Assembly: GCF_045037415.1 (NCBI RefSeq)
Contig: NZ_CP173438.1
Direction: 5' to 3' (one strand)
From: Escherichia coli
GTDB taxonomy: Bacteria; Pseudomonadota; Gammaproteobacteria; Enterobacterales; Enterobacteriaceae
DNA length: 64,000 nt
Under the pieces are notes generated by a model. The model searched no databases. It was not told where the DNA came from and saw only the letters and a list, made by a program, of their open reading frames with translations. Positions 35,076 through 47,229 of the stretch are shown piece after piece (within the stretch, counting starts at the first letter, position 1; the number at the start of each line of letters is the position of its first letter). Both the position numbers and the translations under genes were made by a program.

Positions 35076-36722
35076 TCAGGATTTTTTCTTCTCGCGGCTA
35101 TGCAAGCCACGTTTTTCCAGACCACGGTAAATCAGCTGCTGCTGAATAATGGTTACCAGGTTGCTGACGATATAGTACAGCACCAGACCTGACGGGAACC
35201 ACAGGAAGAACACAGTGAAGATGACCGGCATAAAGGTCATGATCTTCTGCTGCATCGGGTCGGTCACAGTGGTCGGCGACATCTTCTGAATGAAGAACAT
35301 CGTTACGCCCATCAGGATCGGCAGGATGTAGTACGGGTCCTGTGCAGACAGGTCGTGGATCCACAGTGCAAACGGTGCCTGACGTAGTTCAACGGAACCC
35401 ATCAGCATGTAGTACAACGCCAGGAAGATTGGCATCTGGATCAGCAGCGGGAAGCAGCCGCCCAGCGGGTTAACCTTCTCAGCTTTGTACAGCGCCATCA
35501 TTTCCTGGCTTATGCGCTGTTTGTCATCGCCCAGACGCTCACGCATTGCCTGAATCTTCGGCTGCAGCATACGCATCTTCGCCATGGAGGTGTACTGCGC
35601 TTTGGTCAGCGGGTACATGATGCCACGAACGATAAAGGTGATGATGATAATGGAGAAGCCCCAGTTACCCACAAAGCTATGGATCCATTTCAGCAGTTTG
35701 AACAGTGGCTGAGAGATGAACCACAACCAACCGTAATCAACGGTCAGATCCAGGTGCGGAGCAACAGCTGCCATTTTGTCCTGAATTTCCGGGCCAACCC
35801 ACAGGGTGCTGTTCATCGCGCCAGTCTGACCAGGCTGAACCAGTACCGGCTGAGATTTATAGCCGATAGCGGCGATGCCGTTACCCAGATTAGCGGTGTA
35901 GAAGTTGTTGGTACCGTCGTTATGCGGGATCCACGCCGTCGCGAAATACTGTTGCAGCATTGCCACCCAACCACCTTTCGAAGAGATGTTCAGGTTTTCG
36001 TTATCGGCAATGGTATCGAATTTGTATTTCTCGTACTTCTCGTCAGGCGTGGAGTACGCCGCACCACGGAAGGTGTGCAGTGCGAAGTTGCTGCTTCCGG
36101 TATCGAGATGCGGTGGCAGAGTGATGGATTGCTTCAACTGACCAAAGGTGGAGATTTCCAGCGGTTTCTCGCCAGCGTTCTGCACGTTGTAGTTGACGTT
36201 GACAGCGTAATCACCACGTTTCAGGACAAACGTTTTGGTAAACGTGTTGCCTGCCGCGTCGGTATACGTCATCGGCACCTGCAGTTCGTTTTGACCTTCA
36301 GCCAGCACATAAGCGTCTTTTTCAACGTTATATAGCGGACGCGGGCCGTTAGCCGGGTTATCCGGGCCATCACGACCGGTCAGACCGCTCTGTGCCTGAT
36401 AAATAAACTGCGGTGAAGTTTCCAGCAGCTGGAACGGCTGGGTAGAGTTCAGCTCTTTCGGGTAAGCCGGCAGCAGGGCCTGCTCAACATCACCACCACG
36501 GGTGTTGATGGTCAGATCAAGCACGTCGGTCTTAACCGAGATCAGTTTCCCCTGGCCACTGGCCGGTACGCCCTGGTCGGCGGCGCTACCCGCTGCGGTG
36601 GTCGTTGTCTGCGTGGTCTGTTGGGCCTGAGGTTGCGGGTTTTTATCCTGCTCCCAGGCTTGCCAGATCATGAAAGACACGAACAGCAAAGCGATGACTA
36701 AAAGATTGCGTTGCGAATCCAT
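35076..36722 (-). CDS. yidC: Membrane protein insertase YidC (548 aa)
   Basis: 548-aa [29 protein letters not shown]…. Confidence 0.95.
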
Positions 36723-45604: not shown

Positions 45605-46261
45605 TTAACAATTTCTGGTCGTGCATAAAATCAGGAACTGGAGTGGTGACGTTACTATATCCAGCGTAAGAGTGACTGGCAGCAGCGCATTAACGAGGCC
45701 GCGCGGGACGCCATCTGTTGCTTTGTACTCATAAAATCCCACCGTAAAGGGTTGATGGAAAACCATCACGTTTGAGTAATCCGCTTTTTTATTTTTCTGG
45801 TGGATTGAGCCTTTCAAACCGTCCAGCATCCATGTACAACGCCGGGTATCACAAATAAAACCATATTGTGTTGCCAGTGCCTTATCTTCTTCGTTGTTCC
45901 AGTCGTAATAGAGCGTAATAGCACCAGAGAAATTCTTATTACTGCTGCTTAAAATAAATTTCGCGTTATCAGAAACGGTGATTCTTTCACCATGGATTGC
46001 CGGATCGTTCAGCATGTTAACCACCTCATCGCCGCCGGTGGTCAATAGATAGTCCAACGATTCACCAACAAAAACATAACCTTTCGTACCGTTACTGTCT
46101 TCAGCCAGCGATAAACCCTTAATCGTGTCTGACCGCCATTGCTCGGCATGTGGACGGCTTGCAGTATTGGAAACCAATCCCCAGGTGATACATCCGGTCA
46201 ACGCAAATGCCAAAGAACACAAACCGGCAGCCTTAAAAAATCCTTTAAAATTCAATTTCAT
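45605..46261 (-). CDS. yidX: Putative lipoprotein YidX (218 aa)
   Basis: ORF 45605..46279; start at [24 protein letters not shown] (lipobox). Confidence 0.8.
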
Positions 46262-46390
46262 GATTAATCCTTTAAACAAGAGTGCTAAGCCGTTGAAAGC
46301 ATACTCTTCTTTCCCTCCTGTTTAGCGCCTGATCTCCCTTTTCAGATTTTTGCCCGACGTAGAACATTTTCTTATGGATTGTTCTTTTTG

Positions 46391-46478
46391 TGATCTAAAT
46401 TGTAGTACAACAATATAAATTTGTACTACATTATGCGCACAGCAAACGCGAACGTCATCACGCTGGTACTACAAAATT
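46391..46478. promoter_or_regulatory. Putative DgoR (GntR/FadR-type) operator repeats in the dgo promoter
   Basis: Three copies of a tGTAsTACa-type motif: ttgtagtacaa (46390-46400), ttgtactacat (46411-46421), ggtactacaaa (46465-46475), the first two forming an inverted repeat. Confidence 0.6.
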
Positions 46479-46539
46479 GCCGCGTTATGCATCGATCGGG
46501 GTAAAGTAGAGAGGAACATACAGAGCACAAGGACTCTCC

Positions 46540-47229
46540 ATGACTCTCAATAAAACCGATCGCATCGTTATTACGCTGGGTAAACAGATCGTTCACGGCA
46601 AATACGTGCCAGGCTCGCCGCTTCCGGCTGAGGCAGAACTCTGTGAGGAGTTTGCAACCTCGCGCAACATCATCCGTGAGGTATTTCGTTCGCTGATGGC
46701 GAAGCGGCTGATTGAAATGAAACGTTATCGCGGGGCGTTTGTGGCTCCGCGTAACCAGTGGAATTACCTCGACACTGACGTACTGCAATGGGTGCTGGAA
46801 AACGACTATGACCCACGGCTTATCAGTGCAATGAGCGAAGTGCGAAACCTGGTAGAGCCGGCTATTGCCCGTTGGGCAGCAGAGCGCGCGACCTCCAGCG
46901 ATCTGGCGCAGATTGAATCGGCGCTGAACGAGATGATTGCTAACAATCAGGACCGCGAAGCGTTTAACGAAGCGGATATTCGCTACCACGAGGCGGTGCT
47001 GCAGTCGGTGCATAACCCGGTGTTACAACAACTGAGCATTGCGATCAGTTCGCTGCAGCGGGCGGTTTTTGAACGAACCTGGATGGGCGATGAGGCCAAC
47101 ATGCCGCAAACGCTCCAGGAACATAAGGCGCTGTTCGATGCGATAAGGCATCAGGACGGCGATGCGGCAGAGCAGGCGGCGCTTACCATGATCGCCAGCT
47201 CGACACGAAGGTTAAAGGAAATCACATGA
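46540..47229 (+). CDS. dgoR: GntR/FadR-family repressor of D-galactonate catabolism (229 aa)
   Basis: 229-aa ORF with N-terminal winged-HTH; first gene of the dgo cluster. Confidence 0.9.
   Translation: MTLNKTDRIVITLGKQIVHGKYVPGSPLPAEAELCEEFATSRNIIREVFRSLMAKRLIEMKRYRGAFVAPRNQWNYLDTDVLQWVLENDYDPRLISAMSEVRNLVEPAIARWAAERATSSDLAQIESALNEMIANNQDREAFNEADIRYHEAVLQSVHNPVLQQLSIAISSLQRAVFERTWMGDEANMPQTLQEHKALFDAIRHQDGDAAEQAALTMIASSTRRLKEIT

What the first reader, a model, noticed from the sequence alone, without database searches (positions are those of the whole stretch)
46380..46480. Three related palindromic half-site repeats in the yidX-dgoR divergent region
The sequences ttgtagtacaa and ttgtactacat form an inverted repeat around a 10-bp AT-rich spacer, and a third copy (ggtactacaaa) lies ~45 bp downstream. 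The GTA…TAC core fits GntR/FadR-family operator architecture, so these are candidate DgoR operators overlapping the dgo promoter.
Basis: partly seen in the sequence, partly recalled or inferred. Interest (0 to 1): 0.3.

Follow-up and report, generated by a model that had tools for sequence, protein, structure and literature searches.

The report
Known DgoR operators at dgo promoter
These three short palindromes upstream of E. coli dgoR are binding sites for the galactonate repressor DgoR, two proven by experiment and the third already predicted by comparative genomics in 2015, so the finding is correct but not new.

Summary
TTGTAGTACAA (46400-46410), TTGTACTACAT (46421-46431) and TGGTACTACAA (46464-46474) lie between yidX and dgoR of an E. 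coli genome. The motif is over-represented: 4 hits in 64 kb against 0.72 expected, three of them within 75 bp.

The first two are the published DgoR operators IR1 and IR2. They overlap the -35 and -10 of the D-galactonate-inducible, CRP-activated dgo promoter. Each 11-mer is a complete TTGTA-N-TACAA palindrome bound by one DgoR dimer, not a half-site.

The third copy is absent from the current experimental two-operator model. It was, however, listed as a predicted DgoR site for E. coli and relatives in Suvorova et al. 2015 (S1 File).

In 79 species I find it conserved (1.62 bits per position against 0.37 in the preceding spacer). It sits at fixed spacing, 43 bp after IR2 and 36 bp before a conserved GGTAAAGTA. 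It is never a perfect palindrome. It lies about +30 from the inducible start and just upstream of a second, basal RNA polymerase site.

It is most likely a weak auxiliary or autoregulatory DgoR operator. No binding test of it appears in any paper I could read; the primary 2019 paper was not available to me.

Verdict: already known, low interest.

The parts
45605..46261 (-). yidX, the divergent neighbour. It is not part of the regulatory module.
   Evidence: ORF list. RefSeq annotation of the identical region in strain 4/1-1 and of strain 167. No Pfam hit.
46389..46404 (.). CRP site (class II) of the inducible promoter. The left half TGTGA is at 46389-46393, the right half is poor and overlaps IR1 and the -35, and a GATC lies at 46391-46394.
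   Evidence: Belliveau 2018 places a CRP site with TGTGA at -160 to -140 from the ATG and calls it class II. TTTGTGATCT is conserved and lies exactly 13 bp before IR1 in 78 of 78 species.
46400..46410 (.). IR1 (O1): the perfect DgoR operator TTGTAGTACAA. It overlaps the -35 region (AGTACA, 46404-46409) of promoter P1.
   Evidence: Exact match to the published IR1 oligonucleotide. Perfect in 74 of 79 species, 1.94 bits per position.
46421..46431 (.). IR2 (O2): the DgoR operator TTGTACTACAT, with one mismatch. It overlaps the P1 -10 TACATT (46427-46432).
   Evidence: Published as the second inverted repeat with one mismatch. The -10 TACATT is given by Belliveau 2018. It lies 21 bp from IR1 in 78 of 79 species, 1.76 bits per position.
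46427..46432 (+). -10 hexamer TACATT of the D-galactonate-inducible promoter P1. The inferred start site is near 46439.
   Evidence: Belliveau 2018 names the wild-type -10 as TACATT. My hexamer scan finds AGTACA-17-TACATT. The start-site position is inferred from the -10, not measured here.
46464..46474 (.). IR3 (third site): TGGTACTACAA, with one mismatch. Its centre is about +30 from the P1 start and about -45 from the inferred P2 start.
   Evidence: Listed as a predicted DgoR site in Suvorova 2015 S1 File. Present with up to 2 mismatches in 76 of 79 species but never perfect. It lies 43 bp from IR2 in 70 of 79 species and 36 bp before GGTAAAGTA in 76 of 78 species, 1.62 bits per position against 0.37 in the preceding spacer. 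No binding experiment was found.
46477..46507 (+). Candidate basal promoter P2: TTGCCG, 19-bp spacer, TAAAGT. The -10 lies inside the conserved block GGTAAAGTAG (46499-46508).
   Evidence: Belliveau 2018 reports an RNA polymerase site at -70 to -30 from the ATG (46470-46510), seen in glucose. This is the best hexamer pair in that interval, 8 of 12 matches. GGTAAAGTA is conserved in 61 of 78 species exactly. The hexamer assignment is my inference.
46540..47229 (+). dgoR, encoding the GntR/FadR-family repressor. It is the first gene of dgoRKADT.
   Evidence: Pfam GntR and FCD domains. Full-length match to PDB 7c7e, E = 3.7e-149. RefSeq annotation.

Best explanation
The three 11-bp palindromes are operators of the D-galactonate repressor DgoR in the dgoRKADT control region.

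Shown in the literature: DgoR dimers bind IR1 and IR2. These sites are 21 bp apart (two helical turns) and cover the -35/CRP site and the -10 of the inducible promoter P1, so RNA polymerase and CRP are excluded. D-galactonate binding to the FCD domain releases DgoR, and cAMP-CRP then activates P1.

Inferred here: the third site is a conserved, deliberately sub-optimal DgoR operator in the leader. DgoR bound there would sit on roughly the same helical face as IR1 and IR2 (43 and 64 bp away). It would also sit directly against the -35 of the basal promoter P2, which makes DgoR when P1 is shut.

Its most likely roles are (a) negative autoregulation of P2, setting the DgoR level, and/or (b) reinforcing repression of P1 by cooperative contacts or as a roadblock.
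For: - IR1 and IR2: there is an exact match to the published IR1 oligonucleotide and to the two-operator model. The DgoR-dependent repressor footprint lies at -140 to -110, DgoR was enriched by DNA-affinity mass spectrometry, and the footprint is lost in a dgoR deletion and in D-galactonate. EMSA release by D-galactonate is reported.
- Motif clustering is far above chance.
- IR3 was listed as a DgoR site in eight enterobacterial genomes by comparative genomics.
- In 79 species IR3 is a conservation island (1.62 bits against 0.37 and 0.97 in its flanks). It keeps the operator consensus through several different substitutions, including a C/G swap at the centre as seen between IR1 and IR2.
- Spacing is fixed: 13, 21, 43 and 36 bp across the module.
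- The E. coli IR3 (TGGT-ACT-ACAA) fits the FadR-subfamily TKGT-N3-ACMA consensus fully.
- IR3 is never perfect (0 of 79), whereas IR1 is perfect in 74 of 79. This fits a tuned low-affinity site.
- Related GntR/FadR repressors use promoter-flanking or multiple operators: LldR O1/O2 with looping and three NanR dimers.
Against: - No experiment that I could read shows DgoR on IR3.
- The laboratory that characterised DgoR still draws only IR1 and IR2 in 2025.
- The base-resolution Sort-Seq study reports only one repressor region (-140 to -110). It describes the -70 to -30 RNA polymerase site as active in glucose, when DgoR is repressing. Any effect of IR3 on P2 is therefore partial at best.
- DgoR is reported as a dimer. 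No tetramer or looping has been shown.
- The fixed spacing could reflect promoter geometry rather than DgoR binding.
- The primary paper (Singh et al. 2019) was not available to me. A negative test of IR3 could exist there.
Confidence: 0.85

Rival explanations
1. The third copy is not a DgoR site. It is conserved because it belongs to the basal promoter P2 (an UP-element or -35-proximal region) or binds another factor, and it only resembles the operator.
For: IR3 is locked to the conserved GGTAAAGTA (candidate P2 -10) at 36 bp in 76 of 78 species. That is tighter than its 43-bp link to IR2, which holds in 70 of 79 species. Sort-Seq reported an RNA polymerase site at -70 to -30 and no repressor signal there. 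The left flank TCACG is also conserved.
Against: The conserved positions are exactly those of the DgoR palindrome (T.GTA.T.CAA). The variants (TTGTACTGCAA, TAGTACTACAA, TGGTAGTACAA, TTGTAGTGCAA) keep that palindrome and swap the centre base C/G, as an operator would. A -45 region of a sigma-70 promoter has no such sequence requirement. Three operator-like sites within 75 bp against 0.72 per 64 kb is hard to get by accident.
Confidence: 0.2
2. The third copy is conserved as part of an RNA hairpin in the dgoR leader. The palindrome plus the flanks CTCAC...GTGAG seen in Enterobacter would form the hairpin, acting on transcript stability or attenuation.
For: In several genera the flanks of IR3 are complementary, e.g. 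CCTCACGTTTGTACTGCAAAAGTGAGG. A modest hairpin is predicted in the E. coli leader.
Against: RNAalifold finds no consensus structure in 39 leaders. The explicit hairpin is paired in 67.6% of cells against 65.7% in shuffles, with 34 of 500 shuffles as good, and with no excess of compensatory changes. The fold z-score is only -1.45. There is no Rfam match. The E. coli, Salmonella and Klebsiella flanks are not complementary.
Confidence: 0.04
3. This is the reader's architecture: the first two 11-mers are the two arms of one long inverted repeat around a 10-bp spacer, bound as a single unit (for example by a tetramer), with the 11-mers as half-sites.
For: The arms are 10 of 10 complementary with a 10-bp gap. 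The 21-bp spacing is invariant.
Against: Each 11-mer is self-complementary on its own, and a third copy stands alone 43 bp away. The literature treats each as a separate inverted repeat bound by one dimer, with each monomer on a 5-bp half. The FadR-subfamily consensus TKGT-N3-ACMA is a single 11-bp palindrome. The complementarity of the two copies follows automatically from two copies of one palindrome.
Confidence: 0.05

Closest known systems
DgoR operators IR1 and IR2 of the E. coli dgoRKADT cis-acting element (Singh et al. 2019, as cited in PMC11705089 and PMC12288454; Belliveau et al. 2018, PMC6003448)
   Same: The sequence and position are identical. IR1 is the perfect palindrome TTGTAGTACAA and IR2 has one mismatch. 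They overlap the -35 and -10 of the D-galactonate-inducible, CRP-dependent promoter.
   Different: Nothing differs for the first two copies. The published experimental model has no third site.
Comparative-genomics DgoR regulon (Suvorova, Korostelev and Gelfand 2015, PLoS One, S1 File)
   Same: It lists all three sites for E. coli, including CACGCTGGTACTACAAAGTTG. It also lists three sites each for E. fergusonii, Enterobacter 638, Cronobacter, Klebsiella, Shigella, Salmonella and Serratia.
   Different: It is a prediction only, with no analysis of spacing, of the site's position relative to the promoters, or of its systematic imperfection. This window carries the E. fergusonii-like flank (AAAATTG) rather than the K-12 flank (AAAGTTG).
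LldR (GntR/FadR) operators O1 and O2 flanking the lldPRD promoter
   Same: It is a FadR-subfamily sugar/organic-acid repressor with one operator upstream and one downstream of the promoter. [quoted passage not shown] IR3 at about +30 is positionally like O2.
   Different: The dgo region has two adjacent operators on the core promoter plus one downstream. No looping or tetramerisation has been shown for DgoR.
NanR (GntR/FadR) on the (GGTATA)3 operator
   Same: Three dimers of a FadR-subfamily repressor occupy three repeats at one sugar-acid promoter and bind cooperatively.
   Different: The NanR repeats are contiguous direct hexamers, and cooperativity needs a NanR-specific N-terminal extension. 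The DgoR sites are 11-bp palindromes spaced 21 and 43 bp apart.

Membership tests
FadR-subfamily (GntR family) operator | A/T-rich palindrome with TKGT and ACMA boxes separated by 3 nt (Suvorova 2015) | tested here: met
   IR1 is TTGT-AGT-ACAA and IR3 is TGGT-ACT-ACAA; both match fully. IR2 is TTGT-ACT-ACAT and matches 7 of 8 box positions.
FadR-subfamily (GntR family) operator | The cognate regulator has an N-terminal GntR winged helix-turn-helix and a C-terminal all-helical FCD domain | tested here: met
   Pfam PF00392 (E = 2.9e-14) and PF07729 (E = 2.1e-27) in the adjacent gene product. Full-length match to PDB 7c7e.
DgoR operator (E. coli dgo cis-acting element) | Sequence identity with the experimentally bound IR1 and IR2 at the dgoR promoter | tested here: met
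   Window 46395-46416 equals the published IR1 oligonucleotide CTAAATTGTAGTACAACAATAT. IR2 has one mismatch, as published. The footprint at -140 to -110 equals 46400-46430.
DgoR operator (E. coli dgo cis-acting element) | Conservation in orthologous dgo promoters | tested here: met
   In 79 species IR1 is perfect in 74, IR2 has up to 2 mismatches in 78, and IR3 has up to 2 mismatches in 76. Spacing is fixed.
DgoR operator (E. coli dgo cis-acting element) | Direct, D-galactonate-sensitive binding of DgoR to the site | not testable with these tools
   This is established in the literature for fragments carrying IR1 and IR2. For IR3 alone I found no experiment. The primary 2019 paper is not held.
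Looping or cooperative multi-operator repression (LldR-like) | Operators in helical phase, with repression depending on their spacing | tested here: inconclusive
   Centre-to-centre distances of 21, 43 and 64 bp are about 2, 4.1 and 6.1 turns and are conserved. However, 9 of 79 species differ by 1-2 bp. IR3 is tied even more tightly to GGTAAAGTA.

The most novel reading that the evidence does not exclude
The third, always-imperfect palindrome is a dedicated autoregulatory operator. DgoR bound there at low affinity throttles the basal promoter P2 that supplies DgoR while P1 is shut, setting the repressor's steady-state level. It may also stiffen repression of P1 through same-face contacts with the IR1/IR2-bound dimers. 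This would turn the accepted two-operator model into a three-operator, two-promoter circuit that is conserved with fixed geometry across Enterobacteriaceae and into Erwiniaceae.
Probability: 0.35. Interest if true: 0.3.

Novelty: already known. Interest (0 to 1): 0.12.

Why it matters
D-galactonate use is a recurrent target of selection when E. coli colonises the gut; dgoR loss-of-function mutations sweep in mice. The wiring of this promoter therefore has physiological weight.

The operators themselves are textbook-level knowledge for this system. The only open point is small: the experimental model uses two operators, while comparative genomics, now across 79 species, supports a third at a fixed position next to a second promoter. 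Testing it would refine the model of DgoR autoregulation. It would not change how this regulator family is understood.

Tried and rejected
- RNA element in the leader: there is no Rfam hit at E up to 1, the single-sequence fold is unremarkable (z = -1.45), and RNAalifold finds no consensus structure in 39 leaders.
- Hand-drawn hairpin using the IR3 flanks: it is no better than shuffled controls. Rejected.
- Minus-strand promoter-like site ATGACG-17-CATAAT (46458 to 46430), which could serve yidX. Its -10 is not conserved, and yidX is not the upstream neighbour in most genera. Not pursued.
- Fourth motif hit at 35407: it lies inside a long ORF and is treated as chance.
- The primary DgoR operator paper (PMC6351737, doi 10.1128/JB.00281-18) could not be read.
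- The supplement of Belliveau 2018 is not held, so I could not inspect the expression-shift values at -76 to -66.
- A full-text search for the site sequences found only the two Chaba-laboratory papers, for IR1.
- The P22 Pid paper has nothing on operators.
- The Reg-Seq paper speaks of an 'upstream' and a 'right' DgoR site without coordinates. I could not tell whether 'right' means IR2 or IR3.

Full report
**Observation**

The window between 46262 and 46539 is the intergenic region between yidX (minus strand, 45605-46261) and dgoR (plus strand, 46540-47229). It belongs to an Escherichia coli chromosome. It is 100% identical to strain 4/1-1 and about 94% identical to the allele carried by most E. 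coli.

- TTGTAGTACAA at 46400-46410.
- A 10-bp A/T-rich spacer, then TTGTACTACAT at 46421-46431.

The repeat finder confirms a 10 of 10 complementary pair with a 10-nt gap, and a direct repeat GTACTACA 43 bp apart. The degenerate palindrome TTGTASTACAA with one mismatch allowed occurs 4 times in 64 kb against 0.72 expected. No shuffle out of 100 reaches 4, and three of the four hits lie within 75 bp. The fourth lies inside a long ORF.

One correction to the description. Every 11-mer is by itself a 5-1-5 palindrome. The 'inverted repeat around a spacer' is therefore simply two copies of one palindrome 21 bp apart, and the units are whole operators, not half-sites.

**What the first two copies are**

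The downstream gene product has GntR and FCD domains. It matches PDB 7c7e, the E. coli DgoR structure, over its full length. dgoK, dgoA and dgoD follow it.

The DgoR literature gives the IR1 oligonucleotide as CTAAATTGTAGTACAACAATAT, which is window 46395-46416 exactly. It describes IR1 as a perfect inverted repeat and IR2 as one with a single mismatch, each bound by a DgoR dimer. Both overlap the D-galactonate-inducible promoter.

An independent Sort-Seq and DNA-affinity mass-spectrometry study reported the following:
- A DgoR-dependent repressor footprint at -140 to -110 from the dgoR start codon (46400-46430).
- A -10 hexamer TACATT (46427-46432).
- A class II CRP site with TGTGA at -160 to -140 (46389-46393).
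- Loss of repression in a dgoR deletion and in D-galactonate.

EMSA release of DgoR by D-galactonate is also published. These two copies are therefore established operators.

**The third copy in the literature**

It is absent from the two-operator model that the characterising laboratory still uses in 2025. The Sort-Seq paper reports no repressor feature there.

It is nevertheless not new. The S1 File of Suvorova, Korostelev and Gelfand (2015) lists three predicted DgoR sites for E. coli b4479, the third being CACGCTGGTACTACAAAGTTG. It lists three each for E. fergusonii, Enterobacter 638, Cronobacter, Klebsiella, Shigella, Salmonella and Serratia.

The same paper gives the FadR-subfamily consensus as TKGT and ACMA boxes 3 nt apart and names DgoR among the examples. 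The E. coli third site, TGGT-ACT-ACAA, satisfies that consensus completely.

**New comparative evidence**

I fetched dgoR loci from 80 species of Enterobacteriaceae, Erwiniaceae and relatives and analysed 79 upstream regions. A phylogenetic footprint shows five islands separated by poorly conserved DNA:

| Region | Window coordinates | Conservation (bits per position) |
|---|---|---|
| Left CRP half-site | 46380-46399 | 1.55 |
| IR1 | 46400-46410 | 1.94 |
| IR2 with the -10 | 46421-46431 | 1.76 |
| Spacer between IR2 and the third site | 46433-46458 | 0.37 |
| Third site (a conserved TCACG lies just to its left) | 46464-46474 | 1.62 |
| Block GGTAAAGTAG | 46499-46508 | 1.70 |
| Ribosome-binding region | 46529-46542 | 1.33 |

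Other results on the third site:
- It is recognisable (up to 2 mismatches) in 76 of 79 species.
- Its variants (TTGTACTGCAA, TTGTACTTCAA, TAGTACTACAA, TGGTAGTACAA, TTGTAGTGCAA) all retain the palindrome. They swap the central C/G exactly as IR1 and IR2 differ.
- It is never a perfect palindrome (0 of 79), whereas IR1 is perfect in 74 of 79.

Spacing is strikingly fixed:

| Interval | Distance | Species with that distance |
|---|---|---|
| CRP half-site to IR1 | 13 bp | 78 of 78 |
| IR1 to IR2 | 21 bp | 78 of 79 |
| IR2 to third site | 43 bp | 70 of 79 (the rest 41-44) |
| Third site to GGTAAAGTA | 36 bp | 76 of 78 |
| GGTAAAGTA to start codon | 38-42 bp | variable |

The stretch 46386-46508 thus behaves as one length-locked module.

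**Position and likely mechanism of the third site**

With the -10 at 46427-46432, the P1 start is near 46439. This is an inference. The third site then lies at about +26 to +36 in the leader.

Belliveau et al. also report an RNA polymerase site at -70 to -30 from the ATG that is visible in glucose. The best hexamer pair there is TTGCCG (46477-46482), 19 bp, TAAAGT (46502-46507). Its -10 lies inside the conserved GGTAAAGTAG. On that reading the third site is centred about 45 bp upstream of the P2 start, directly against its -35.

I therefore propose that it is a weak DgoR operator that throttles the basal promoter supplying DgoR. It may also add to repression of P1 by same-face contacts (43 and 64 bp are about 4 and 6 turns) or as a roadblock. 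Relatives offer precedents: LldR uses operators on both sides of its promoter, with spacing-dependent looping, and three NanR dimers bind cooperatively to three repeats.

This step is inference, and several things weigh against a strong effect:
- Sort-Seq saw P2 active under repressing conditions and did not call a repressor site at -76 to -66.
- DgoR is described only as a dimer.
- I could not read the primary 2019 paper or the Sort-Seq supplement.

**Rivals**

- A leader RNA hairpin was tested and not supported. There is no Rfam family, the fold is unremarkable, RNAalifold finds no consensus structure in 39 leaders, and an explicit hairpin is no better than shuffles (67.6% against 65.7% paired, 34 of 500).
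- Conservation purely as promoter DNA cannot be excluded. It does not explain why the conserved letters are those of the DgoR palindrome.
- Chance is excluded.

**Verdict**

What remains open is a modest question about whether, and for which promoter, the third site works. Interest is low.

Noticed in passing
window 46499-46508: GGTAAAGTAG is one of the most conserved blocks of the intergenic region (1.70 bits per position). GGTAAAGTA is exact in 61 of 78 species and lies exactly 36 bp after the third palindrome in 76 of 78 species. It probably contains the -10 (TAAAGT) of the basal RNA polymerase site reported at -70 to -30, but the best -35 (TTGCCG) is 19 bp away, which is unusually far.
   Followed up: partly
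window 46391-46394: A Dam site (GATC) sits inside the conserved CRP half-site TTTGTGATCT. In Salmonella a hemimethylated GATC within the putative CRP site of dgoR is reported, together with Dam-dependent ON/OFF heterogeneity (PMC7708049). The same arrangement is conserved in 58 of 78 species.
   Followed up: partly
window 46459-46463: TCACG immediately left of the third palindrome is conserved well beyond the operator consensus. In some genera it pairs with GTGAG on the right flank, but covariation does not support a hairpin. The reason for its conservation is unexplained.
   Followed up: partly
window 46262-46539: This strain carries a minority allele of the yidX-dgoR intergenic region. Only about 10% of complete E. 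coli records are at least 99% identical, and 4210 of 5435 fall in the 90-95% band. All three palindromes are nevertheless identical in the common allele. The flank of the third site (AAAATTG) matches the E. fergusonii entry rather than K-12 (AAAGTTG) in Suvorova's table.
   Followed up: partly
L083 (E. coli ES5, NZ_CP133871.1) 1500-2900: In some E. coli genomes the match stops about halfway through the intergenic region and yidX is followed by cbrA and yidR, so the dgo operon is missing there. About 400 of 5424 genomes cover less than 80% of the query.
   Followed up: no
Suvorova 2015 S1 File, Shigella flexneri SF3769: The Shigella flexneri IR1 is listed as TTGTAGCGCAA, with two changes in the right half of the otherwise invariant perfect operator. 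This would be expected to weaken repression.
   Followed up: no
window 46430-46458, minus strand: There is a sigma-70-like match ATGACG-17-CATAAT pointing towards yidX and overlapping IR2. Its -10 is not conserved across species, so it is probably not functional.
   Followed up: partly
window 35407-35417: ATGTAGTACAA, a one-mismatch match to the DgoR palindrome, lies inside a 548-aa ORF on the minus strand. I treat it as a chance occurrence.
   Followed up: no
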